Notes under the pieces: generated by a model
The model's database searches: none
The model's input: the letters and a program-made list of their open reading frames with translations, nothing else
Told to the model about the DNA's origin: nothing
In this document: piece by piece, positions 2,305 to 32,337 of the stretch
How positions within the stretch are numbered: position 1 is the first letter of the stretch
How the letters are laid out: each line of letters opens with the position of its first letter
Position numbers and translations under genes: made by a program
IMG/VR virus record: IMGVR_UViG_3300030330_004305
Source: an uncultured virus (IMG/VR IMGVR_UViG_3300030330_004305)
Taxonomy: Duplodnaviria > Heunggongvirae > Uroviricota > Caudoviricetes
Length of the DNA stretch: 64,000 nt
Direction: 5' to 3' (one strand)

Positions 2305-2375
2305 GGTGCGGTGGATCGGTTATCCAAGCGAGTCTTATATACTCGCCTCCGTGGGTTCAACTCCTACCCGCACTA
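2305..2375 (+). tRNA. tRNA-Ile (anticodon UAU)
   Basis: Acceptor GGTGCGG/CCGCACT, short D arm GGAT-CGGTT-ATCC, anticodon arm GCGAGT-CTTATAT-ACTCGC, T arm GTGGG-TTCAACT-CCTAC; CCA not encoded. Confidence 0.8.
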
Positions 2376-2400
2376 CTTGGAGGACTAGCTATCCTCCATC

Positions 2401-2551
2401 GGAAGGTGGCTGAAAATACGGGAGCAAGAACAGCACGCGAGGCTTAACCGGACGGGCAAGTGCTATACATGGTTAAGATAGTGGTTAAAGTAGGAACAAT
2501 GCCATAACTGGCTCCGAAATTTGTGGGTAAAATGTAAATCCCACCCTTCCA
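2401..2551 (+). ncRNA. tRNA-like structured RNA with internal pseudoknot
   Basis: GGAAGG/CCTTCC termini, GTGGG/CCCAC T-like arm, GGAGC/GCTCC helix, crossing helices AGCAC/GTGCT and CTTAACCG/TGGTTAAG; located inside the tRNA cluster. Confidence 0.65.
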
Positions 2552-2563
2552 TTTTTATTTTAC

Positions 2564-2637
2564 GGACTCGTAGCTCAGTTGGTCAGAGCAGGAAACTCAT
2601 AATTTCTTGGTCGGGGGTTCAAGTCCCTCCGAGTCTA
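2564..2637 (+). tRNA. tRNA with CAU anticodon, probably tRNA-Ile2 (lysidine type) rather than Met
   Basis: Canonical cloverleaf GGACTCG/CGAGTCT, loop CTCATAA; AGCAGG..ACTCATAAT..CTTGGTC resembles bacterial Ile2 tRNAs. Confidence 0.85.
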
Positions 2638-2641
2638 CTAC

Positions 2642-2714
2642 GCTCGCATAGCTCAATGGATAGAGCAACAGACTTCTAATCTGTAGGTTGTAGGTTCGAG
2701 TCCTACTGCGAGTG
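2642..2714 (+). tRNA. tRNA-Arg (UCU)
   Basis: GCTCGCA/TGCGAGT acceptor, ACAGA-CTTCTAA-TCTGT anticodon arm, GTAGG-TTCGAGT-CCTAC T arm. Confidence 0.92.
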
Positions 2715-2716
2715 CT

Positions 2717-13280: not shown

Positions 13281-14120
13281 ATGAAGGTTTTATGGATTGC
13301 AGATTTTGGACTCCAGCATAATATAGGTGGGGCACAAAGGACAGACTCATTTGTAATACAAGAAGGCATTAACAGAGGTCATGAGATAGTTTTTCTAAAC
13401 TATGACACTCCAAGCGATGTCTTGAATGATACATATGATTTAGTAGTTACTGGAAACTTAGAAATAATTAGTCAGAGAAGACCTGATGTTTTTCAGTATT
13501 TATTAAATCATCCTAATCATGTAAGGTTTGAGCATGACTCAAATTCTTATTTGTCTCAAGATGCAAGAAAAGCATTATTTAATTCTACAAAAAAAACTAT
13601 CTTTCTGTCTGAATTTCATCATCAAACATTCGTACAGCTATATGGAAACATATTCAAAAATGTCGAGATAGTCAGACCTTTTATTGATTCAAAAGTATTT
13701 TATGATTTCCAACAGGAAAGAGAAGAAAAAACTTTATATGTTGGGTTTTTTCATTTCCTGAAAGGTACTGTAAAATTTTTGGACTTTGTTATCAACAATC
13801 CAGATAAGAAGTTCATAGTCGCCGGATGGGGCAACAAAGGGTTTGAAAACCATATAAAGTATTTGCACAATGTCGAGTACATAGGCAAAGTAGATCATGG
13901 TGAAATGCCAAAATTATTCAATAAATACAAAACCATGTATTATCATCCAGAAAAATTTGAGCCATTCTGTAGATCAGTAGGAGAAGCAATAATGTGTGGG
14001 ATGCAATTAGACGTAAGTGATAATATTGGTGCTTTTCATGATCTTCAAAAGTATGGCATAGAAGAATTAAGACAGATGTGTTCTGATTCTCCTAAGATTT
14101 GGTGGGACAAAGTTGAATAA
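13281..14120 (+). CDS. GT-B (GT4-like) glycosyltransferase
   Basis: IGGAQRT N-terminal motif; EPFCRSVGEAIMCG (E-X7-E). Confidence 0.85.
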   Translation: MKVLWIADFGLQHNIGGAQRTDSFVIQEGINRGHEIVFLNYDTPSDVLNDTYDLVVTGNLEIISQRRPDVFQYLLNHPNHVRFEHDSNSYLSQDARKALFNSTKKTIFLSEFHHQTFVQLYGNIFKNVEIVRPFIDSKVFYDFQQEREEKTLYVGFFHFLKGTVKFLDFVINNPDKKFIVAGWGNKGFENHIKYLHNVEYIGKVDHGEMPKLFNKYKTMYYHPEKFEPFCRSVGEAIMCGMQLDVSDNIGAFHDLQKYGIEELRQMCSDSPKIWWDKVE

Positions 14121-14169
14121 TACCGAGTATAATTTTATATGACGTGTTGTTTTATACCACTAAAAGGAT

Positions 14170-15045
14170 GTGAATATGAATGTTGGAGTTATTGGAAGAG
14201 GCTTTGTAGGCGGCTCAATAGAAAAGTTTTTGAAAACAAGAAGTAAATATTCTGTAAAATCTTATGATTTAAAAGATGATACAGATATGAATAATGCCTA
14301 CAGCAACATTGTAAACCGCAGCGATCTTATCTATGTCTGCGTTCCAACACCGATGGACTATCAAGGAAATTGTTATACTGATATAGTCAGAGGTTGTGTG
14401 CAACTCCTGAATTTCTATGCAGATGCACATAAAAAAAGACCTGTCGTTTTGTTAAAATCAACGATGGTTCCAAAGACCACAGAATCTTTTAAAAAAGAAT
14501 TTAAAAATCTAATCTTTGTAACTAATCCAGAATTTCTAACAGAAAGAACCGCATATGATGATTTGTGCAATAGTAAGTTTCATGTTATAGGTATTGATGA
14601 TTCTGAAACTGAGGCTAAAAAACTACTGCTTGATTATCATAACTCGATGTGGCCTGATTCTAAATCTATCTTTGTAACTAATACTCAGGCAGAGATGATA
14701 AAGTATCTTACCAATACTTATTTTTCTGTAAAAGTTTCTTTTGCCAATCACATCTATCAGCTTTGTCAAGCTATGGGAATGGATTACAAAACATTCATTG
14801 ACGCAGCTATAGAGTCAGACCCTAGACTTGGAGAGCTACACTGGAATGTTCCCGGCCCCGATGGTCTTATGGGGTTTGGTGGAAAATGTTTTCCAAAAGA
14901 CTTTAATGGAATGATTAAACTATTTGATGAAAATAATGTTAATTGTGAAATTTTAAAGATGATTTGGAAGTATAATGTAGATGTTAGGGGAGAAAATGAC
15001 TGGCAAAAAATTGAAGGTGCGGTGTGTCAAGAACAGGATCAATAG
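14170..15045 (+). CDS. UDP-glucose/GDP-mannose dehydrogenase family (short form lacking C-terminal domain)
   Basis: GVIGRGFVG, VCVPTP, KSTM, NPEFL, AEMIKY..NTY, GFGGKCFPKD. Confidence 0.9.
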   Translation: MNMNVGVIGRGFVGGSIEKFLKTRSKYSVKSYDLKDDTDMNNAYSNIVNRSDLIYVCVPTPMDYQGNCYTDIVRGCVQLLNFYADAHKKRPVVLLKSTMVPKTTESFKKEFKNLIFVTNPEFLTERTAYDDLCNSKFHVIGIDDSETEAKKLLLDYHNSMWPDSKSIFVTNTQAEMIKYLTNTYFSVKVSFANHIYQLCQAMGMDYKTFIDAAIESDPRLGELHWNVPGPDGLMGFGGKCFPKDFNGMIKLFDENNVNCEILKMIWKYNVDVRGENDWQKIEGAVCQEQDQ

Positions 15046-16031
15046 TATTTGCAACTAAATCTGGACTAGGCATACTAGCTAAAAATTTATATGAATCAAA
15101 AATAATAGATAAAGTCTTTATAGCTGGTCATCCTAAATTTGAATCTCATCCAGAATGGTACGACAGAAAAGATGTAGTTCTTTCCGAGAAGGAGCTTATT
15201 GATTCTGTCGATACCCTTTTTATATTGGAGGCTCCACTACCAGACCCATTCGATTGGTCTATAGTTGAGTTAGCACAATCTATGGGCAAGCGTGTTGTTC
15301 TTATGCCAATGTATGAGTCAACACCACGATCTCATCTTGTGTTTATGGATAAGATTATATGTCCATCTCTTCTTGATCTTGAATATTATGAAGATTATGA
15401 CTCATGCTTTATTCCCGTTCCATCGCCAACAGATGTAGAATGGAAATTAAGAGAGCGTGCAAATGTATTTGTTCACAATGTTGGGCATGGTGGAATATAC
15501 TCAAGGAATGGCACTGCTGAAATAATCAAAGCTCTGCCGTTGATAAAATCTCAAGATATAAAAATTATCATAAGAGTACAACCTGATGCCAACCCAGATA
15601 TAGCACAACTACTAGATAGTATATCGGATCACAGGGTTTCTATAGAAAAAAGACACGTTCCTTTTAAAGAACTGTGGTCTACGGGTGATGTGTTTTTATT
15701 TCCAGAGAAGTTCAATGGACTTTCTCTGCCTCTGCAAGAAGCCCATGCTGCTGGTATGCTCGTTATGGCAGGAGATCGCTCTCCAGTTAATACTTGGCTA
15801 CCAAAAGAACCACTAATACCTGTGTCTGGTTATTTTAATACAGAGCTTCCTTGGATTGGAATAAAAGTAAGAAATGCAATCATGTCTCCAGAAGATATAG
15901 CAAAGACTATTGACCAATGGGCTGGTAAAGATATTTCAGAATATTCAAAAATCGGACAGTCATGGGCATCTCAGAACACTGGAGATTTACTAAGAGAAAA
16001 ATATTTGGAGCAATTATATGTCAGAAAATGA
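15024..16031 (+). CDS. GT-B glycosyltransferase
   Basis: DVFLFPEKFNGLSLPLQEAHAAG. Confidence 0.8.
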   Translation: MSRTGSIVFATKSGLGILAKNLYESKIIDKVFIAGHPKFESHPEWYDRKDVVLSEKELIDSVDTLFILEAPLPDPFDWSIVELAQSMGKRVVLMPMYESTPRSHLVFMDKIICPSLLDLEYYEDYDSCFIPVPSPTDVEWKLRERANVFVHNVGHGGIYSRNGTAEIIKALPLIKSQDIKIIIRVQPDANPDIAQLLDSISDHRVSIEKRHVPFKELWSTGDVFLFPEKFNGLSLPLQEAHAAGMLVMAGDRSPVNTWLPKEPLIPVSGYFNTELPWIGIKVRNAIMSPEDIAKTIDQWAGKDISEYSKIGQSWASQNTGDLLREKYLEQLYVRK

Positions 16032-16599
16032 ATTTTGGACAGATCCATCAGAGCAAGAATTTCTTATGAGCTATGTAAATTCAGAAACAGATCTTCTTGA
16101 ATATGGTTCGGGAAGTTCAACTCTTGTTTTACAAGATAAAGTAAAAAAACTTGTATCTGTAGAACACCATGAAGGTTGGTACAATGAACTTAAACCAAAA
16201 CTTAATTCAAATGTATTGTATATTTACGCACCACCAGATAATTTAGACTGGGAAAATCAATACTCTATAGTAAACAATGATAGTATTCGGAAAAATACAG
16301 CAGGCGATGATGGAACATTTGAAGATTTTAATACTTATGTAATGTCACCAAATGGTTGGGGTAAATTTGATATTGTTTTCGTAGACGGTAGAGCTAGAGC
16401 AGCGTGTGCTTGGTTCGCTACATCCCTTTTGAAAGATGAAAACAGTAGAATATTTATACATGATTTTGGTCCTGAGACAAAGCACCCACACCTACCATAT
16501 AGAACATACTATGACATTGTAAATAATTTCCTAGAAGAAGAAGATCATGTGAAAACAATGTATTGCTTTAAGGCAAAAAATGAAAATATATATAATTGA
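16018..16599 (+). CDS. class I SAM-dependent methyltransferase (polysaccharide O-methyltransferase-like)
   Basis: LLEYGSGSST, SVEHH, FDIVFVDGRAR, IFIHDF. Confidence 0.85.
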   Translation: MSENEFWTDPSEQEFLMSYVNSETDLLEYGSGSSTLVLQDKVKKLVSVEHHEGWYNELKPKLNSNVLYIYAPPDNLDWENQYSIVNNDSIRKNTAGDDGTFEDFNTYVMSPNGWGKFDIVFVDGRARAACAWFATSLLKDENSRIFIHDFGPETKHPHLPYRTYYDIVNNFLEEEDHVKTMYCFKAKNENIYN

Positions 16600-17563
16600 T
16601 GCTTTTTTTTATAAAAATAGCAACCCTAATGATAAACAATATTGCATACAAAATTCAGGATATCAATGGATTTCTGGTTTATTTGATAGTTTTGAAAAAT
16701 TTTTTGAGGTTACTTCTAACCCATCAGAAGCTGATATAATAATACAACTATGTCATGAAGAATATGCAAAACATATGTACTGTCCTGATCCGAATTGTTC
16801 TGGCGGCTGCGGTAATCCAAAAGTTCCAACTTTTTTCAAAATGGAATACTTTATGAAAGTTTATGGCTCAACAAAAAAGTATGCATTTTACATATGGGAT
16901 TTATATTCTTGGGCCTTTCGTAGCAATTCATTAGGACATGCAAATGGAGGCAGTTGGTTTTGGGAAAGATTAAAACAAGTTTGTAAAAATTGTGATTATG
17001 TATTTGTTCCTAACTATGGAACTAAGGTTAGTGTTGATCAATATTGTAACATAAAATCTAAAGTATTAAAACCATTCACAAGATTTTTTGAAGAGAAAAA
17101 TATCCAAGATAATAATTATGTTGCTATAGCACAACGTAGATACGTTTTAGATCATACTGAAAAATGGCTTGTGTCAGCACTTAAAGAGTTGAATATACCT
17201 TACATAGCTAGTTATGATCATGAAACATTTTTTAAAGATTCAAATAATTTTAAAAAACTTTTGACTGATTGCTCGTTTATTGTATCTGCAAAGTTTGAGG
17301 TATCGACTGGTGGAATCTCTTTGCTTGAAGCATACAATTGCGGAAAGCCTGTTTTAATTTCAGATTCAAAATTTAATGGTGCAAACGATATATTCGGAGA
17401 TAGGGCTTTTAAATTTAAATATTATTCATATGAACATCTTAAAGAATGTTTAAATTATTTATGGAAAACTCGCCCAAAACTTGATATGGAAGAGTGTAAA
17501 AACTTTTGTAAACAATTCACATCCGATGCTATGGTAAAAAGAATTTATGAGGTCGTAAAATGA
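16580..17563 (+). CDS. GT-B glycosyltransferase
   Basis: EVSTGGISLLEAYNCGKPVLISD; paralog of 19878..20744. Confidence 0.8.
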   Translation: MKIYIIDAFFYKNSNPNDKQYCIQNSGYQWISGLFDSFEKFFEVTSNPSEADIIIQLCHEEYAKHMYCPDPNCSGGCGNPKVPTFFKMEYFMKVYGSTKKYAFYIWDLYSWAFRSNSLGHANGGSWFWERLKQVCKNCDYVFVPNYGTKVSVDQYCNIKSKVLKPFTRFFEEKNIQDNNYVAIAQRRYVLDHTEKWLVSALKELNIPYIASYDHETFFKDSNNFKKLLTDCSFIVSAKFEVSTGGISLLEAYNCGKPVLISDSKFNGANDIFGDRAFKFKYYSYEHLKECLNYLWKTRPKLDMEECKNFCKQFTSDAMVKRIYEVVK

Positions 17564-18450
17564 AGATATTATACATAGCTAAACATGGCCAACAAAATAA
17601 TGATGATGAAGGTTCAATATATAAATCATTGACTTTATTGGGACATAAAGTTGATAGATTTCAGTTAAATTATTTCAAAACAGATAAGCCGATATTAGAT
17701 AATATCAGTAAGCATTATGATTTTGCTTTGTTTCATAAACTTCCAGATGCAGATTATGTAGAATATGTCTGTAATAAATGGAAGGGTATATGTTGGTATT
17801 TTGATGCTGTTGGTAAGGGATTTGATAGTAATGACGACTATGTTAATTTAGTTAAAGATTATTTTTACATCGGATTTTTTACGGATGGTGATTTTGTTAA
17901 TAGTCAGAACAAAAATAATGTAAAACTTTTGAGACAAGGTTTAGACTTAGTTGATGATAACAATGTATTTGTTCCTAATGTAGCATACAGATTAGGTGCT
18001 AAACCAATACCTTTTATTTTTATTGGAACTATTGGTCATGGTGGATATTTAGAGCGAGAACAATATCTTGAGAAACTTCAAAATGATTTTATAGGATGGA
18101 GACCACACAACAAGTATGATATTTTTAAAGAACACCTATCCTCTGTTTGCCGACAAACTAAAATTATGCTTGCAATGCCACCAGCTACTGATCACTACTG
18201 GTCTAATCGTGTTTACTTACTAGGAGGAAGAAGTGCTTTTGTTCTTCATCCATATTCTTCTGAATTACAAAAACAATTTGGGGATAGTATGGCTTTTTAT
18301 AAAGACTATGAAGAGCTAAAAGAAAAGATAGATTATTTTTTAGTAAACCATGAAGAAAGGCAAAGTATGTCACAAAAAGCACACAGTATCATAATCAATG
18401 AACATTCCTATTTAAATAGATGTTCTGATTTAATTAAGGAGATACAATGA
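17560..18450 (+). CDS. CgeB-like glycosyltransferase
   Basis: YWSNRVYLLGGRSAFVLHP; ELKEKIDYFL...HSYLNR. Confidence 0.8.
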   Translation: MKILYIAKHGQQNNDDEGSIYKSLTLLGHKVDRFQLNYFKTDKPILDNISKHYDFALFHKLPDADYVEYVCNKWKGICWYFDAVGKGFDSNDDYVNLVKDYFYIGFFTDGDFVNSQNKNNVKLLRQGLDLVDDNNVFVPNVAYRLGAKPIPFIFIGTIGHGGYLEREQYLEKLQNDFIGWRPHNKYDIFKEHLSSVCRQTKIMLAMPPATDHYWSNRVYLLGGRSAFVLHPYSSELQKQFGDSMAFYKDYEELKEKIDYFLVNHEERQSMSQKAHSIIINEHSYLNRCSDLIKEIQ

Positions 18451-19337
18451 AAATACTATATATTGCAAAACATGGCCAGTCAAATAACGACGATGAAGGT
18501 TCAATATACAAAGGTCTTACTCTTCATGATTGTAGTGTTGATAAATTTGATTTAGTATCATTTGAAGACGATAAAAAACATCTTGATAAAATAGATGAAG
18601 CATATGATTATGTTTTATTTCATAAACTTCCATGTGAAGATTACGTAGAATATGTCTGCAATAAGTGGGATGGTATTTGCTGGTACTTTGATCCAATAAA
18701 TAAAGGTTTTCCATTAAACGATAAATATGTATCCATGATAAAGGATAATATTAAAATTGGTTTTTTTACAGATGGCGATTTTGTAAAAAAAGAAAACAAA
18801 GAAAACCTAAGAATACTAAGGCAAGGTCTCGATGATTGTGTGCCAACATGGTCAGATTCAAACAGAGTAAAAGATTTTTCTTTTATTGGAACAACATGCC
18901 CTAAGAAAAATTGTAGTTGTGGATATAGCACAAGATCAAATTACATAACAAGGCTGCAATCTGATTTTAAAAACTGGAAACCAGACATTACAAATATATA
19001 CTGGAAAGAATCTCTTACCAAGGTTTGCCATTTAAATAAAATCATGCTTGCGATGCCGCCAGCCACTGATCTTTACTGGTCAAATAGACTTTATGTTTTG
19101 GCGGGCAGGGGTGCTTTTGTATTACACCCAGAGTCTTACGAGTTAAAAAAACAGTTTGGTGAAAATTTAGCAATGTATAAAAATTATGAAGAACTAAAAG
19201 ATAAAATAAATTATTACATCAATAACCATGAAAAAAGAAATAATATGGCTAAAAAATGTCAAAGTATAATTGTAAATGAACATTCTTATTTCCATAGATG
19301 CAAAGAATTGTCGGAGATTTTAAATGAATACAGATAG
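18447..19337 (+). CDS. CgeB-like glycosyltransferase, tandem paralog of previous gene
   Basis: Same MKILYIAKHGQ.NNDDEGSIYK start and YWSNR motif; same length. Confidence 0.8.
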   Translation: MKILYIAKHGQSNNDDEGSIYKGLTLHDCSVDKFDLVSFEDDKKHLDKIDEAYDYVLFHKLPCEDYVEYVCNKWDGICWYFDPINKGFPLNDKYVSMIKDNIKIGFFTDGDFVKKENKENLRILRQGLDDCVPTWSDSNRVKDFSFIGTTCPKKNCSCGYSTRSNYITRLQSDFKNWKPDITNIYWKESLTKVCHLNKIMLAMPPATDLYWSNRLYVLAGRGAFVLHPESYELKKQFGENLAMYKNYEELKDKINYYINNHEKRNNMAKKCQSIIVNEHSYFHRCKELSEILNEYR

Positions 19338-19881
19338 AAATAAATTAGTAGATACATCTGAATTTTGGAAACAAAGAATAGATGATTCTAAAACAAGCGG
19401 AGATATAAGACACTCTGTTTTTAAAGCACCAGAACAAGAATGGCAAAAGGTTTGTAAAGATCATAAAGATATAATTAAAAAAACATTAAAGAAAAAATTT
19501 TTTAAAGGAAGAGTATATGACATACTAGATGCTGGGTGTGCATACGGAAGAGGTATTGATTTACTTCCAAAAGACTGGTCTGGCAGATACGTTGGAATAG
19601 ACCAATCTCAAGATTTTATAAATTTAGCAGAATCTAAATATCCAGATTATGAATTTTATTGTGAAAACCTAAAATATTTGCCGTTTGAAGACAATGAGTT
19701 TGATGTGGCAATATGTACCAGTGTTATGATTATGGTCGTTCAAAATTTAGGGTGGTTTGAATGGGAAAAAATACAAAACGAATTGCTTAGAGTTTCTAAA
19801 TGTATTCTATGCCTTGAATATGGAACAACAGATACAGCTACCGCATCATCTACATTTTATACAATAGGCGATCTATCATGA
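19324..19881 (+). CDS. class I SAM-dependent methyltransferase
   Basis: ILDAGCAYGRG, YVGIDQS, LPFEDNEFDVAI. Confidence 0.88.
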   Translation: MNTDRNKLVDTSEFWKQRIDDSKTSGDIRHSVFKAPEQEWQKVCKDHKDIIKKTLKKKFFKGRVYDILDAGCAYGRGIDLLPKDWSGRYVGIDQSQDFINLAESKYPDYEFYCENLKYLPFEDNEFDVAICTSVMIMVVQNLGWFEWEKIQNELLRVSKCILCLEYGTTDTATASSTFYTIGDLS

Positions 19882-20744
19882 AAATATTTGCATTTTGGAC
19901 AGGTGCTCCTTACATGAAAAGCATCTTAGAAGAGTTTGACAAACAAGGCCATGAAATAACAGATAGGCCATCAGAAGATTGTGATCTACATATATGTTTG
20001 CAGATGGGCGATCAAAATACACACAATGCACTTATTGACATCAAAAAAAGATTTCCAGACGTTCCATTTTTTACTTATGTATGGGACTGTTATGAATGGA
20101 TTACGAACCCTAGACATGATAGAGGTTATGATTGGTCTGGACTCGGCAGAGTTTGCAATATAAGTGAAAAAGTATTTGTTCCTTCTGAGGGGCAACGATA
20201 CAGATGTTTACAACATTGGGGAGTTGGTTTGGAAAAAACAAAATCAATACCCGCATACGCACCATTTTTTGAGCACCAAGCGTCAGACCTTGATTATGTT
20301 TGCGATCCACTTAGGGCGATCCCAGATAGACATGCTGGATGGGCAGAACGTGCTTGTTCAGAACTAAACATTCCGTATCAGCATGGAGGAAGAGGCAAAG
20401 ATAAAACCATAAAAGATTGGGATGAGTATAAACAATGGATTGCTAACTCTTCATTTGTAATATGTCCGTGGTATGAAGCTTCAACAGGAGGAATGTCTCT
20501 GGTCGAGGCGTATTACATAGGCAAAGAGGTTTTAATATGCAATTCTCCGTATATGGGTGCAAAAGATTACTTTGGAGATCGTGCAAACTATTTTGAGCCA
20601 ACATATGAATCAATGAAAGAATCACTGCAAAAAATGTGGGAAGAAAGACCATCAAGATATTCTTTAAAAGATAGAAGGAAATTTTGTGAAAGATTTAGCC
20701 TAGAAAATTTTTGCAAGAATATAATAAAGGAAATTGACAAGTGA
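19878..20744 (+). CDS. GT-B glycosyltransferase
   Basis: EASTGGMSLVEAYYIGKEVLI. Confidence 0.8.
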   Translation: MKIFAFWTGAPYMKSILEEFDKQGHEITDRPSEDCDLHICLQMGDQNTHNALIDIKKRFPDVPFFTYVWDCYEWITNPRHDRGYDWSGLGRVCNISEKVFVPSEGQRYRCLQHWGVGLEKTKSIPAYAPFFEHQASDLDYVCDPLRAIPDRHAGWAERACSELNIPYQHGGRGKDKTIKDWDEYKQWIANSSFVICPWYEASTGGMSLVEAYYIGKEVLICNSPYMGAKDYFGDRANYFEPTYESMKESLQKMWEERPSRYSLKDRRKFCERFSLENFCKNIIKEIDK

Positions 20745-21334
20745 AAAAGGTATGCATTGCATCATCCAGAGAGATAGGATCTAGATGTACAGAATGGGCT
20801 AAGTCAAACATGCCTGATGGGTTTGAGTTAGGATCTATAGAAGATTGTGAAATATTCATATCAACTCTTTACGATACTCTGATAGATAAAAAGTTCATTG
20901 AATCTAAAGAAAGATGTGTAAACTTTCATCCGGGTATTCTTCCAGACTATAGAGGGGCAGGAGCATATAGCTGGTCATTAATAAATAAAGAAAAACATAC
21001 AGGCGTAAGTCTTCATGTCATAGATCACAACATTGATAGTGGTCCTATAATTCAAATAAGAAAAACATTGATATATCCAAGCGATACATCTCAATCTTTG
21101 TATGAAAGATGTATGGATTTATTGTTTGATATGTTCAAGAAAAACTTTAATAAGATACTAAAAGGTACATATAAAACAAAGCCTAACAATGGTGGTAACA
21201 TCTATTTTAGAAAAGACCTTGAGGATGCAAAAGATATATCGCATATAATAAAAGCATTTACTTTTGACAATAAAGAATCTGCCTACTACTACAATAAAAG
21301 TGGCAAAAAAATATATATAGAATACGGAGAATAA
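20741..21334 (+). CDS. sugar N-formyltransferase
   Basis: NFHPGILPDYRG, GVSLHVIDHNIDSGPII. Confidence 0.88.
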   Translation: MKKVCIASSREIGSRCTEWAKSNMPDGFELGSIEDCEIFISTLYDTLIDKKFIESKERCVNFHPGILPDYRGAGAYSWSLINKEKHTGVSLHVIDHNIDSGPIIQIRKTLIYPSDTSQSLYERCMDLLFDMFKKNFNKILKGTYKTKPNNGGNIYFRKDLEDAKDISHIIKAFTFDNKESAYYYNKSGKKIYIEYGE

Positions 21335-21335
21335 C

Positions 21336-22466
21336 ATGGACCCCACACTAAATAAATCAGCAGAAAAATTGATTTGGGTTGCCGAGCCACAAATCGGAAA
21401 AGAAGAAGAAGCGGCATTAACAAGATGTATAACAAATGACTGGATTTCTCAAGGTCCAAGAGTAGCTGAATTTGAAGATGCAGTAGCTAAAACTTGTGGC
21501 AAAAAATACGGATCTGCTTGTAATTCAGGAACTACAGCATTGCATCTGGCACTTCATGTTGCTGATGTGAAAGAGGGTGACGATGTTGTTATACCTAATC
21601 TGACTATGGTTGCTTTGGGAAACTCTGTTCTGCTCGCTGGTGCTAATCCAGTTTACTGTGACTCAGATCCTGAATCTGATGTTGGAAATATTTCTTTAAA
21701 TAAAATTAAAGAAGTGATCACTCCTAAAACTAAAGCAGTAATTGTTGTTCATACTTATGGAGAACCCGTTACTGATATACAAGATATTGTAGATTACTGT
21801 GATTCGTTCAACATCAAAGTAATCGAAGATTGTGCTGAGTCACACTTTGCTACATTAGATGGTAAACCCGTAGGATCTTTCGCTGAACTTGCCATATTTA
21901 GTTTTTATTCTAACAAGAATATTACAACTGGCGAAGGCGGTATGATTGTAACAGATTGCAAAGAAGTCAAAGATAGACTTGACAGAGTAAGAATGCACGC
22001 ATTTACTCCCGGAAAACATTTTTGCCATACCGAAAGAGCGTTTGGCTATAGAATGACAGACATGCAGGCCAGCATCGGTCTTGAACAACTTAAAAAGGCA
22101 GATGCATTTATGGAGAAAAGAAGAAAAATTAGGACATTTTATGAATGGATGCTTAAAAATTCTCACATGAATATTGCAAGAAGAAGTGTCCCAACAGAAA
22201 ATTCTGGAGTTTGGGTTATGCCTATACTTACAGACTCTGAACAAAAAAGAGACGATATTAGACAGCACATAGCAAATTATGGAATTGATTCAAGAACATA
22301 TTTTCAGCCCATGAGTGAGCAATCTTTTTTGAGGTCTTATGCCACCTCTGACTATCCTATATCTGCTAGTCTTGCTAGATGCGGTTTCTACGTTCCTCTG
22401 TATCCTAAACTATCAGAATCTGACGTAGAATATATTGTGGACAAACTGAACTCGTATGGAGATTAA
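21336..22466 (+). CDS. DegT/DnrJ/EryC1/StrS aminotransferase (perosamine synthase-like)
   Basis: NSGTTALHLAL, IEDCAES, FSFYSNKNITTGEGGM, GYRMTDMQASIG. Confidence 0.93.
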   Translation: MDPTLNKSAEKLIWVAEPQIGKEEEAALTRCITNDWISQGPRVAEFEDAVAKTCGKKYGSACNSGTTALHLALHVADVKEGDDVVIPNLTMVALGNSVLLAGANPVYCDSDPESDVGNISLNKIKEVITPKTKAVIVVHTYGEPVTDIQDIVDYCDSFNIKVIEDCAESHFATLDGKPVGSFAELAIFSFYSNKNITTGEGGMIVTDCKEVKDRLDRVRMHAFTPGKHFCHTERAFGYRMTDMQASIGLEQLKKADAFMEKRRKIRTFYEWMLKNSHMNIARRSVPTENSGVWVMPILTDSEQKRDDIRQHIANYGIDSRTYFQPMSEQSFLRSYATSDYPISASLARCGFYVPLYPKLSESDVEYIVDKLNSYGD

Positions 22467-27985: not shown

Positions 27986-28674
27986 TGGGGACTAGTTATA
28001 ATCCTTCCATAATAACTGACGGGCTGGTACTCTGCTTGGATGCTGCTAATAAAAGAAGTTATCCGGGTGCGGGTACTGTGTGGACTGACTTGAAGGAAAG
28101 TAATAATGGAACGCTAACCAATGGTCCCACTTTCAGTTCTGATAATGGTGGAAGTATAGTTTTTGATGGAACTGATGATTATGTAGACTTGGGTAGTAGT
28201 CTTTCTATAAGTACATCTTCTCCCTTTTCTGTAGAATTTTGGAGTAACTTGAGTTCATACGCTGGTTATTATCCTACTATTTTACAATTAAAAACCAATA
28301 CAAGTCAGGGATGGAATATATCGTTTAGTCAACAAAGTAATTATAACGGTATAGTATTTGGTTCTGCAAGTACTTGGAGTAGAATAAAAACTGATAATCC
28401 TCCATCTGTAAATGTCTGGAATCATGTATGCGTTACTTATGATACATCTAATTATTTTATTTATTTGAATCTTGCCCTGCAAAATCAGTCTTCTGCTGGG
28501 AATTTTCAAGTCACTACTCAAAATAATTATATCGGAAGTGCTAATGCTGCTTCAAGGGGTGCAATGGATACTTGGGATGGTTATATATCTAATGTTAAAG
28601 TTTACAATAAGTTACTTACATTTGAACAAATAAGACAAAACTACAACGCAACAAGAGGGAGGTATCAACTATGA
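27985..28674 (+). CDS. LamG/concanavalin-A-like domain protein
   Basis: GLVLCLDAANKRSYPG, FDGTDDYV, WNHVCVTYD, QIRQNYNA. Confidence 0.82.
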   Translation: MGTSYNPSIITDGLVLCLDAANKRSYPGAGTVWTDLKESNNGTLTNGPTFSSDNGGSIVFDGTDDYVDLGSSLSISTSSPFSVEFWSNLSSYAGYYPTILQLKTNTSQGWNISFSQQSNYNGIVFGSASTWSRIKTDNPPSVNVWNHVCVTYDTSNYFIYLNLALQNQSSAGNFQVTTQNNYIGSANAASRGAMDTWDGYISNVKVYNKLLTFEQIRQNYNATRGRYQL

Positions 28675-29903
28675 AAAGAAGAGATTTTATAAAGTTAGGA
28701 GTAGGTACATATGCATTCGGAAATGTTACAGCGACTATCGCAGACGATAAGCAGACTGACGATCCAGCAGTATTGTTCCTTTTTCTTGGTGGTGGGGCTA
28801 GTCATATTGAGACTTTTAATCCTATACCTCTTGCTCCTGCTGACAGGAGATCTGTAACTGGCGATATAAAAACAAATGTTGCTGGAATAGAATTGGGTGG
28901 CCTTTTTAAAGAGCTTTCAAAACGCACAAATAAAATAGTTATACCTAGAGCTTTTGGTCACAGAGATCAAAATCACGCATCTGCCGTTCATTGGGTTGTA
29001 ACTGGAGAAGCAAATTTTGGTGCTGGAACAAGTTCTAAATGGCCTAGCTATGGATCTATGATGAGCAAACATCATGGTGTAAATACAGACGATGGACTTC
29101 CTACATATGTAAAACTAGGAAAGTATGATCATAATGGTGCAGCTTGGTTAGGCGGTAAATATACTGGGTTCGATGCAACCAAAGAGGGTAGAAAAGACCT
29201 ACAACTGATGCGTAAAAGTGAAGATTTTAAAACAAGAATTAATGTTTTAAATGTCATAGACAATAGTTTTAAAGCAAAAGATCAACAATTAGCTAAGGAC
29301 TGGAGAGATTTACGTAATCAATCAGTAGATATTATTCTTGGAAATGGATCAAAGGCATTCAGGGTAGAAGAAGATAAAGATTACAATAAATTTAAAGAAG
29401 CTACGCTTGGACAAGATGCACTTACTGCAATTAGATTGCTAGAAGCTGGCTCTAAATTTGTATCATTAAGCTATGGAGGCTGGGATATGCACCAAAATAT
29501 TGGCCAGTCACTCCAGACAAAACAAGCAGAGTTAGACCATTACTTAGCAAAAATAATGGATACTTTAGAATCAAGAGGTCTATATGAAAGAGTTATGCTA
29601 ATTGTAACATCTGAATTTGGAAGAACCCCCAAAGTAAACCAAAATCAAGGTCGTGATCATTTTGGCAAACTAGCACCCCTCATGATTAGTTGTGGATCAT
29701 ATGAAATGGGAAGAACGATTGGATCGTCAAGTCCAAATGCAGACGATGTTGAAGATGGTCGCTGCACTCCAGAAGATTTAGCTTGGACTATATACGATCA
29801 TCTTAATATGAATAGAACATCTAGATATACAGCTACAGATGGTAGACCCCACAATATAGTGAAAGATGATGCTAAGAATATATTGAAAGATATTCAAGCA
29901 TAA
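28671..29903 (+). CDS. DUF1501 family protein with Tat signal
   Basis: MKRRDFIK; FLFLGGGASHIETF, GWDMH, SEFGRTP, GRDH. Confidence 0.88.
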   Translation: MKRRDFIKLGVGTYAFGNVTATIADDKQTDDPAVLFLFLGGGASHIETFNPIPLAPADRRSVTGDIKTNVAGIELGGLFKELSKRTNKIVIPRAFGHRDQNHASAVHWVVTGEANFGAGTSSKWPSYGSMMSKHHGVNTDDGLPTYVKLGKYDHNGAAWLGGKYTGFDATKEGRKDLQLMRKSEDFKTRINVLNVIDNSFKAKDQQLAKDWRDLRNQSVDIILGNGSKAFRVEEDKDYNKFKEATLGQDALTAIRLLEAGSKFVSLSYGGWDMHQNIGQSLQTKQAELDHYLAKIMDTLESRGLYERVMLIVTSEFGRTPKVNQNQGRDHFGKLAPLMISCGSYEMGRTIGSSSPNADDVEDGRCTPEDLAWTIYDHLNMNRTSRYTATDGRPHNIVKDDAKNILKDIQA

Positions 29904-32091: not shown

Positions 32092-32337
32092 GCATGTATA
32101 AAGATTATTATTGATGTTGTAGGAGACTGCGGGGCAGTACCGCACACCTCCACTTGCCAAACTAAGGGGGTGAAATAGATTCGATCCACAATATGATGTA
32201 GTATATCTCATGCACTGGTTGATAGAAGGGCCAGTATAAAAATCTATCAAACTTTTAATTGCAGATGAAAATCTTGCTTTGGCAGCGTAAGCTGTCTGGG
32301 GTTTGCCAGTACCTTATTATCCAAACTGGCATTTTTT
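32092..32337 (+). ncRNA. ssrA: circularly permuted (two-piece) tmRNA
   Basis: T arm TGCGG-GGCAGTA-CCGCA and CACCTCC-A (32128-32152) precede GGGGGTG-AAATAGATTCGA (32166 onward); G3-U70 pair; pk1 ACTGG/CCAGT and TTGATAGA/TCTATCAA; tag GCA GAT GAA AAT CTT GCT TTG GCA GCG TAA = ADENLALAA* at 32261-32290; terminator hairpin 32304-32337. Confidence 0.92.

What the first reader, a model, noticed from the sequence alone, without database searches (positions are those of the whole stretch)
2401..2551. 150-nt tRNA mimic with an H-type pseudoknot inside the tRNA cluster (possible mini-tmRNA)
Seen: tRNA-like ends (GGAAGG-TGGCTGA ... GTGGG-12-nt loop-CCCAC-CCTTCC-A), a GGAGC/GCTCC helix (2421/2511), and two crossing helices, AGCAC(2432)/GTGCT(2460) and CTTAACCG(2443)/TGGTTAAG(2470). 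After the pseudoknot comes TAGTG-GTT AAA GTA GGA ACA ATG CCA TAA. This resembles the E. coli resume context UAGUC-GCA followed by a short frame VKVGTMP*. The order (tRNA-like domain, helix, pseudoknot, short ORF, helix, T arm) is that of tmRNA in miniature. However, there is no G3-U70 and the T loop is non-canonical. Inference: a ribosome-rescue RNA adding a non-degron tag, an SmpB or anticodon-nuclease decoy, or an unrecognised structured RNA class.
Basis: partly seen in the sequence, partly recalled or inferred. Interest (0 to 1): 0.75.

Follow-up and report, generated by a model that had tools for sequence, protein, structure and literature searches.

The report
Shortened manA-type RNA among phage tRNAs
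This folded RNA between a marine phage's tRNA genes is real but is not a miniature tmRNA: it is a divergent relative of the known manA RNA, laid out like a tRNA with enlarged arms, and this copy has lost the loop with which its relatives make a long-range pairing.

Summary
It matches Rfam manA (RF01745) end to end below threshold (32.2 bits, cut-off 55.2). A model built from it and 21 close relatives finds above-threshold manA members at 84-90 bits.

The pseudoknot fails: AGCAC/GTGCT shows no compensatory change, and both strands have covarying partners elsewhere. The tag frame is shifted in 9 of 22 relatives. The window holds a true permuted tmRNA at 32092-32290, tag ADENLALAA*.

The tRNA likeness holds: 11 of 11 chosen core marks, against at most 9 in 1000 shuffles. 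Anticodon, elbow and CCA are absent.

In relatives, a hairpin loop pairs over 6 bp with the variable arm (5 of 6 pairs compensatory). This copy and one other of 22 lack those 11 nt.

Best reading: a free-standing, tRNA-shaped phage RNA whose family oligomerises through loop contacts (2026 preprint); this allele is probably assembly-impaired. Function is untested. The scan had already noted manA in tRNA clusters, and its tRNA core, on other DNA.

The parts
2305..2376 (+). tRNA-Ile(UAU), upstream neighbour; atypical (found by ARAGORN, no Rfam tRNA hit in the window)
2378..2554 (+). manA-type RNA, single-arm subtype, allele with an 11-nt deletion
   Evidence: Rfam RF01745 model positions 1-192 of 192, 32.2 bits, E 4.7e-7; alignments A1 and A2
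2378..2398 (+). P1, 5' hairpin (7 bp); differs strongly between relatives
   Evidence: all 8 pairs show compensatory changes, 84.7% of cells paired
2401..2406 (+). P2 5' strand, acceptor-like stem of 6 bp with 2545-2550; no G3-U70
   Evidence: 100% paired, 2 compensatory pairs
2407..2414 (+). U8, G9, D-stem-like 5' strand 2409-2412 (pairs with 2431-2434), A14, A15 in tRNA numbering
   Evidence: G2409-C2434 changes to A-U in 6 of 22; helix 100% paired; numbering is my mapping
2417..2429 (+). Remnant of hairpin P3; the 11 nt missing between 2428 and 2429 carry the 3' arm and 5 of the 6 letters of the long-range pairing strand
   Evidence: gap in 2 of 22 rows (window, L039); remnant does not fold on its own
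2430..2435 (+). A21, D-stem-like 3' strand (2431-2434), A26
   Evidence: A2430, G2433 and A2435 invariant in 54 of 54 rows and not part of the row filter
2436..2483 (+). Long arm in the anticodon position: 2436-2438/2481-2483, 2443-2449/2471-2477, 2455-2457/2462-2464 capped by a 4-nt loop; replaces the three-hairpin domain of the Rfam consensus
   Evidence: three helices 100% paired, with 0, 5 and 2 compensatory pairs
2484..2522 (+). Variable-arm-like P8: stem 2493-2495/2513-2515, flanked by invariant AGUA (2489-2492) and GAA (2516-2518); 2507-2512 is the orphaned target of the deleted loop; U2522 = U48
   Evidence: the likeness of AGUA/GAA to a loop E motif is recalled, not tested
2523..2544 (+). 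P9, T-arm-like: 5-bp stem, 12-nt loop with U54 (2528) and A58 (2537), no TTC
   Evidence: 100% paired, 2 compensatory pairs; A58 in 54 of 54
2545..2561 (+). P2 3' strand, unpaired A2551 (discriminator position), then a T-rich tract; no encoded CCA behind the stem
2564..2638 (+). tRNA-Met(CAU), 13 nt behind the element
2642..2715 (+). tRNA-Arg(UCU)

Best explanation
The stretch 2378-2554 is a free-standing phage RNA gene of the manA type. SHOWN by sequence comparison: its identity, its secondary structure, a tRNA-like order of arms with the core nucleotides kept, a 6-bp pairing between the hairpin inserted in the D-loop position and the variable arm in full-length relatives, and the loss of that hairpin in this copy. 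INFERRED: it is transcribed with tRNA-Ile, tRNA-Met and tRNA-Arg and freed when the host trims these tRNAs. It folds on a class II tRNA-like core that cannot decode and is probably not charged. Its enlarged loops join molecules to one another, as cryo-EM shows for other manA RNAs in vitro. I judge the most likely role to be a stable, multivalent tRNA-shaped particle that binds host tRNA-handling or RNA-decay proteins during infection. My odds: manA-type identity about 0.95; tRNA-like core in three dimensions about 0.75; free RNA and not a cis switch at this locus about 0.8; the protein-binding role about 0.3.
For: Rfam match over the whole model. Bridge: model R1 hits L136 at 89.9 and L511 at 84.0 bits, and both pass the manA cut-off (59.5, 56.7). 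RNAalifold finds the cloverleaf-like fold unaided, 25 of 44 pairs with compensatory changes. Long-range helix: 100% of filled cells paired, 5 of 6 pairs compensatory; across clades a run of 6 or more Watson-Crick pairs in 12 of 21 pairing types against 10 of 420 swapped partners. Core marks 11 of 11 in the window and in 49 of 54 rows; 0 of 1000 shuffles reach 10, and 0 of 1420 window tiles reach 11. The Rfam consensus, made without my patterns, has U8, G9, C11, G13, A14, A15, A21, G24, U48, G53, U54, A58, U60 and C61 in upper case. Varied neighbours: tRNA or tmRNA within 100 nt in 12 of 54 rows, HSP20, GMP reductase or rIIA-like genes in others, and a perfect sigma-70 promoter directly before P1 in 4 of 54. 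The annotated manA of phage S-CREM1 also lies between two tRNAs. Oligomers through L5-L7', L8-L9' and L3-L8' contacts: preprint 10.64898/2026.07.01.735769.
Against: The score is 23 bits below the Rfam cut-off. Eight close relatives gave no manA hit at E 0.05: L044 and L328, and L597, L599, L603, L605, L610, L359 (L328 scored 22.5 there). R1 matched 20 of 35 other loci over their length and missed S-CREM1 manA. Thirteen of the 19 invariant columns of A2 were imposed by my search patterns, and the 11 marks leave out the tRNA invariants that fail (G18, G19, U33, U55, C56, CCA). The stem has 4-6 pairs, not 7. Expression is not shown: only assembled contigs of relatives in two RNA libraries. No structure or binding data exist for this subtype. 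An ATG frame starts within 70 nt downstream in 18 of 54 rows, which fits a cis role there. The isolated window RNA does not favour the family fold in a nearest-neighbour model (D-stem probability 0.12).
Confidence: 0.6

Rival explanations
1. Same identity, but the window copy is a decaying allele: the 11-nt deletion destroyed P3 and the conserved long-range pairing, and the RNA is on its way out.
For: The deletion removes a helix kept by compensatory changes in 20 of 22 relatives. The family fold lies 7.6 kcal/mol above the minimum-energy fold of the window copy, whereas full-length L013 and L339 fold into it spontaneously. One contig of run X1 joins 2379 to 2564, a variant without the element. 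The nearest virus record G001 (81% complete) has no match to 2290-2720.
Against: The same deletion junction stands in L039, on a different P1, T-loop and gene context, and a 98-nt contig of run X1 spans the site with 1 mismatch and 1 gap. All other helices of the window copy are intact. A scan aimed at the deletion found 4 matches, of which only L039's contig is a homologue, so the allele is rare.
Confidence: 0.3
2. Cis-regulatory element or riboswitch, as proposed for manA in 2010: the fold controls termination at the T-tract or translation of the next gene.
For: PMC2864571 places manA in 5' UTRs of genes for sugar and nucleotide metabolism and of ibpA. Relatives here precede HSP20 and GMP reductase genes; 18 of 54 rows have an ATG frame within 70 nt. 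The end helix is followed by a T-tract.
Against: In the window the next gene is tRNA-Met, 13 nt away; near-identical elements precede tRNA, tmRNA, HSP20 or rIIA-like genes. The terminator scan does not list this site.
Confidence: 0.12
3. Processing punctuation: the tRNA-like core serves mainly as a substrate for RNase P and 3' trimming enzymes and so helps to cut and protect neighbouring RNAs.
For: tRNA-like core; placed 1 nt behind tRNA-Ile and 13 nt before tRNA-Met; next to tmRNA in L599, L605, L610, L611.
Against: It does not explain the covarying long-range helix or the long arms. The elbow that these enzymes measure (recalled) is absent. Most relatives have no RNA gene beside them (42 of 54 by ARAGORN).
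Confidence: 0.08
4. A chargeable tRNA-Leu-like decoy: after CCA addition it is aminoacylated by a synthetase that ignores the anticodon, and it binds EF-Tu or a defence protein.
For: That leucyl- and seryl-tRNA synthetases ignore the anticodon is recalled.
Against: Stem of 4-6 pairs, no G18G19, no TTC, no encoded CCA; the window clade has G13-C22, not G13.A22.
Confidence: 0.06
5. Mini-tmRNA adding the tag VKVGTMP.
For: tRNA-like ends are real; 6 of 22 relatives encode VKVGTMP* and 11 of 22 keep 7 codons plus stop.
Against: Frameshift at codon 2 in 9 of 22; no G3-U70 in any of 22; pseudoknot without covariation; no Rfam tmRNA match on this strand; a true tmRNA lies elsewhere in the window and next to the element in relatives.
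Confidence: 0.01

Closest known systems
manA RNA motif (Rfam RF01745; PMC2864571; cryo-EM in bioRxiv 10.64898/2026.07.01.735769)
   Same: Order of helices P1, P2, 2-4 bp junction helix, central arm, P8, P9; conserved UG-R-CUGAA and GGUA...AAUCC words; marine phage origin; HSP20 and nucleotide-metabolism neighbours in relatives; position between tRNAs as in S-CREM1. Single-arm members with the same C-AAGU-G loop stand in the 2010 alignment (2 of about 60 rows seen).
   Different: 32.2 bits against a cut-off of 55.2; one long arm instead of three hairpins, so no L5-L7 pairing; P3 and its loop deleted in this copy; the 2010 structure lines annotate no L3-P8 pairing.
Class II tRNA (Leu, Ser; Rfam RF00005)
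   Same: Acceptor, 2-nt linker, D stem, 1 nt, anticodon-position arm, long variable arm, 1 nt, 5-bp T stem stacked on the acceptor; U8, G9, C11-G24, A14, A15-U48, A21, R26, G53-C61, U54, A58, U60.
   Different: 6-bp acceptor, no CCA, no G18G19, 12-nt T loop without TTC, no anticodon loop; neither ARAGORN nor the Rfam tRNA model detects it, and model R1 does not detect tRNAs.
tmRNA (RF00023, RF04321)
   Same: tRNA-like ends enclosing a larger structured interior.
   Different: No G3-U70, no CCA, no conserved frame, no supported pseudoknot before the frame; a 4-bp D-like stem is present, which tmRNA lacks (recalled).

Membership tests
manA (RF01745) | Covariance-model score at or above 55.2 bits | tested here: not met
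   32.2 bits, E 4.7e-7, full model length
manA (RF01745) | Homology to above-threshold members | tested here: met
   R1 hits L136 (89.9 bits), L511 (84.0), L023 (37.4), L065 (24.2), L011 (19.4), all above the manA cut-off; it misses S-CREM1 manA
manA (RF01745) | P1 hairpin, closing helix P2, junction helix, P4, P8, P9 in this order | tested here: met
manA (RF01745) | P3 hairpin | tested here: not met
   deleted in the window and L039; present with 4 compensatory pairs in the other 20 of 22
manA (RF01745) | Three-hairpin domain with L5-L7 pairing | tested here: not met
   single arm in all 22 rows of A1; such single-arm rows also occur in the 2010 alignment
manA (RF01745) | Pairing between the P8 region and L9 (the uncertain pseudoknot of 2010; L8-L9' in the preprint) | tested here: inconclusive
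   one register 72.7% paired with 1 compensatory pair, broken in the window; the neighbouring register 46.6%
manA (RF01745) | Location in a 5' UTR of a protein gene | tested here: not met
   tRNA-Met follows after 13 nt; first ATG frame after 165 nt
manA (RF01745) | Oligomer formation in vitro | not testable with these tools
   shown for five other manA RNAs in the preprint
tmRNA | G3-U70 alanine identity pair | tested here: not met
   third pair A-U in 22 of 22
tmRNA | Conserved tag frame | tested here: not met
   frameshift in 9 of 22; lengths 5-19 codons
tmRNA | Pseudoknot pk1 before the resume codon | tested here: not met
   AGCAC/GTGCT 85.5% paired, 0 compensatory pairs; predicted probability 0.0 in the nested ensemble
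tmRNA | SmpB binding and trans-translation | not testable with these tools
   bench test
tRNA (class II) | Core invariants U8, A14, A21, G53, U54, A58, C61 and semi-invariants R9, Y11-R24, R15-Y48, R26, Y60 | tested here: met
   11 of 11 marks; shuffles reach at most 9; partly imposed by the search patterns in the homologue set
tRNA (class II) | 7-bp acceptor stem, G18G19, TTC loop of 7 nt, anticodon loop with U33 | tested here: not met
   stem 4-6 bp, T loop 10-15 nt, no TC at 55-56 in any of 54
tRNA (class II) | L-shaped tertiary fold | not testable with these tools

The most novel reading that the evidence does not exclude
manA RNAs are tRNA-derived building blocks: a class II tRNA core whose D loop, anticodon arm, variable arm and T loop were turned into exchangeable kissing modules, so that phages build RNA-only particles from a tRNA scaffold. 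The window allele is a naturally selected form without the L3 module, kept in at least two genetic backgrounds because a monomeric or chain-ending tRNA-shaped RNA has a use of its own, as a decoy for host tRNA-binding proteins or as a cap that limits assembly.
Probability: 0.2. Interest if true: 0.8.

Novelty: new variant of a known kind. Interest (0 to 1): 0.42.

Why it matters
The function of manA has been open since 2010, and the 2026 preprint makes it the first natural RNA reported to form a 60-subunit cage. Three points here make it more testable. First, the core reads as a class II tRNA, which suggests an origin, a processing route and candidate protein partners; the papers I could search do not say so, though earlier notes of this scan do. 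Second, the single-arm subtype keeps one strongly covarying long-range helix, which predicts the assembly interface. Third, nature supplies matched alleles with and without that helix (L013 or L339 against the window), and apparently without the whole element, so contact, fold and function can be separated without designed mutants. If the allele is merely decaying, the finding is an ordinary divergent manA copy.

Tried and rejected
Mini-tmRNA: rejected. H-type pseudoknot: rejected; G2433 and C2434 pair with 2410 and 2409, and 2462-2464 pair with 2455-2457. My first guess that AGCAC pairs whole with 2481-2486 (the minimum-energy fold) was dropped for the same reason.

L8-L9 pairing: inconclusive. 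The structure string was one column off the register I meant; the intended register is the '-1' row (46.6% paired, no compensatory change) and the counted one gave 72.7%.

mis-parsed five rows and was redone, which still mis-parsed L022, L325 and L326; these stay in the 12-of-21 count as misses. My notebook figure of 10 of 22 frameshifts was wrong; it is 9 of 22.

Most pattern hits were chance: 595 loci held gave 52 candidate rows (window included) after a closing-stem filter. A2 holds 53 hand-kept homologues plus S-CREM1 manA. I left out as chance or redundant L288, L334, L348, L360, L538, L446 and repeated copies of one contig; L290 (manA 54 bits) was left out of A2 for its length. L493 spans two tRNAs and was dropped from the context count.

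No homologue in cultured phages, plasmids or GTDB genomes (7 hits: 2 tRNA-Ser, 5 chance by eye). The own assembly is not held. No promoter-like site directly before the element in the window. RNA runs X15 and X16 hold full-length relatives as contigs only: no start, strand or level can be read, and DNA carry-over is possible. The empty-site variant rests on one contig.

Literature: searches found no paper calling manA tRNA-like; the preprint's main text has 0 occurrences of 'tRNA'. Not readable: the preprint's supplement and four supplementary files of PMC2864571 (S1, S3, S6, S7). They may note tRNA adjacency or likeness.

Full report
Setting. The window is part of a large phage genome (rIIA, rIIB, DNA polymerase, sigma factor), and its best sequencing-run holders are mostly labelled marine metagenome. 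ARAGORN finds tRNA-Ile(UAU) 2305-2376, tRNA-Met 2564-2638 and tRNA-Arg 2642-2715. The flagged stretch fills the gap between the first two.

Observation. Folding energy alone is not exceptional (z -1.25). Rfam gives one convincing match: manA (RF01745), 2378-2554, model positions 1-192, 32.2 bits, E 4.7e-7, cut-off 55.2. The element thus begins 23 nt earlier than reported, with a hairpin.

Homologues. Pattern scans of viral and metagenome contigs and a closing-stem filter gave 21 close relatives (alignment A1 with the window) and 31 distant ones; with S-CREM1 manA they form A2 (54 rows). Of 19 homologue loci scanned, 7 pass the manA cut-off, 10 match below it and 2 give no hit; of 15 loci, 2 pass, 7 match below and 6 give none. 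A model built from A1 finds 20 of 35 other loci over their length, among them L136 (89.9 bits) and L511 (84.0), which pass the Rfam cut-off; it misses S-CREM1 manA and finds no tRNA. The 2010 alignment contains single-arm members with the same 4-nt loop. The element is therefore a sub-threshold manA relative of a subtype already sampled in 2010.

Structure. RNAalifold on A1 gives, unaided, P1, a 6-bp closing helix, a 4-bp helix 2409-2412/2431-2434 enclosing a hairpin, a long central arm, a P8 stem and a terminal 5-bp hairpin; 25 of 44 pairs have compensatory changes. The alternative partners are 100% paired: G2409-C2434 becomes A-U in 6 rows and G2456-C2463 becomes C-G in 3. The pseudoknot is therefore not the conserved fold. 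Related rows inflate such counts, so they are not independent events.

Tag idea. The frame VKVGTMP* is identical in 6 of 22 rows and keeps 7 codons plus stop in 11; 9 rows carry one extra base at codon 2. The third pair is A-U in all 22. The same window encodes a permuted tmRNA at 32092-32290 (84.3 bits, cut-off 47) with the tag ADENLALAA*, which ARAGORN missed. In L599, L605, L610 and L611 an ordinary tmRNA follows the element as a separate gene.

A long-range helix, lost in this copy. Twenty of 22 rows have 11 more bases after 2428. They complete hairpin P3, whose loop pairs with the segment at 2507-2512 over 6 bp: all filled cells paired, 5 of 6 pairs compensatory. Across clades the loop and the P8 region share a run of 6 or more Watson-Crick pairs in 12 of 21 pairing types, against 10 of 420 when partners are swapped (three rows mis-parsed and counted as misses). 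The 2010 structure lines do not annotate this pairing; the preprint describes an intermolecular L3-L8' contact in one manA. Covariation cannot tell cis from trans. The window and L039 share the deletion junction on different P1, T-loop and gene backgrounds. A contig of run X1 spans the site with 1 mismatch and 1 gap, another carries the long form, and a third skips the element altogether.

tRNA-like core. Read in tRNA numbering, the helices come in the order acceptor, D, anticodon position, long variable arm, T, with tRNA spacing. The 19 invariant columns of A2 fall on positions 7, 8, 9, 11, 13, 14, 15, 17, 21, 24, 26, 44, 45, 48, 49, 53, 54, 58 and 61. Thirteen were imposed by my patterns; 21, 24, 26, 44, 45 and 58 were not imposed by the row filter (44 and 45 lay in the patterns). 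The Rfam consensus shows the same letters independently. A free parser scores the window 11 of 11 marks; 1000 shuffles reach at most 9 and 1420 window tiles at most 10. The marks omit the invariants that fail: G18, G19, U33, U55, C56, CCA. Descent from a tRNA is inferred, not shown.

Context. Of 54 rows, 12 have a tRNA or tmRNA within 100 nt by ARAGORN, 18 have an ATG frame within 70 nt, and 4 (two distinct upstream sequences) have TTGACA and TATAAT directly before P1. Downstream genes include HSP20 and GMP reductase, as reported for manA. Near-identical elements with unrelated neighbours fit a movable RNA gene better than a dedicated switch, but a cis role in some contexts is not excluded. 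Expression is not shown.

Mechanism. Shown: identity, secondary structure, core marks, long-range helix, deletion. Taken from the preprint: other manA RNAs form octamers, decamers and a 60-mer in vitro through loop contacts. Inferred: co-transcription with the tRNAs, release by tRNA processing, assembly of full-length relatives through the L3 contact, weak assembly of this allele, and binding of host proteins by the tRNA-shaped core. The main rival for this copy is plain decay.

Papers, as seen. 10.64898/2026.07.01.735769: parts 1-4 of 5 of the main text and a term search; supplement closed. PMC2864571: passages, a supplement term search and four parts of supplementary file 5; four files unreadable. 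PMC9964418, PMC7779021, PMC7657543 and its preprint: passages. PMC12990946: term search without hits. Nine searches found no statement that manA is tRNA-like; the library lacks most subscription papers. tRNA numbering, the list of invariants, loop E and synthetase identity rules are recalled.

Earlier notes of the scan. I wrote down the tRNA-core reading. Later look-ups showed many manA copies noted in phage tRNA clusters and two notes with the same core reading; one is marked as partly fallen. They are not independent support.

Verdict. A real RNA; a new variant of a known kind; not a tmRNA. Interest 0.42: the family is known and has been seen often in this scan, but the tRNA core, the covarying helix and the natural deletion allele give direct tests of an open question.

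Noticed in passing
window 32092-32330 (+): Permuted (two-piece) tmRNA missed by ARAGORN: RF04321 84.3 bits, tag ADENLALAA* at 32261-32290, with GCAGUA in place of the usual T-loop word and a hairpin behind the tag.
   Followed up: partly
window 2305-2376: tRNA-Ile with a UAU anticodon, short D arm and long anticodon stem; no Rfam tRNA hit in the window, 31.2 bits in L013.
   Followed up: no
window 2379-2564, run X1: One contig (depth 29.6) joins tRNA-Ile directly to tRNA-Met: a possible presence/absence polymorphism of the whole element.
   Followed up: partly
window 2428, run X1 record 4: A short-form contig reads T at 2428; this would fit a second 11-nt deletion shifted by one base, or a later substitution (inference).
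   Followed up: no
L599 1483-1825, L605 1082-1423, L610 1-332, L611 1036-1376, L499 1078-1281: Phage tmRNA genes close to the manA-type element: one-piece with tag ADTSVLALAA* in L599, L605, L611 (cut off in L610), permuted in L499.
   Followed up: partly
window 2386-2390 and P1 of relatives: The P1 loop keeps U-(A/C)-G-C-U in all 22 rows of A1 while the stem is exchanged freely; the common form holds a palindrome, a possible further contact.
   Followed up: no
L613 1-90, L616 1062-1151: tRNA-Ser(UGA) genes whose acceptor and T stems read almost like the element's ends, with one more pair in the acceptor stem.
   Followed up: partly
window 28671-29903: DUF1501 protein (PF07394, 187 bits). I recall this family as typical of Planctomycetota, a hint at the host, not tested.
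   Followed up: no
window 13281-22466: A long run of frames that read like glycosyltransferase and sugar-nucleotide genes (by eye, not scanned).
   Followed up: no
L023, L070, L362, L371, L383, downstream of the element: A further conserved non-coding stretch with hairpins follows the element in this clade; no Rfam match in L023 or L070 besides manA and tRNA.
   Followed up: no
L290 130-330: A longer manA (54 bits) with a different interior, left out of the alignments.
   Followed up: no
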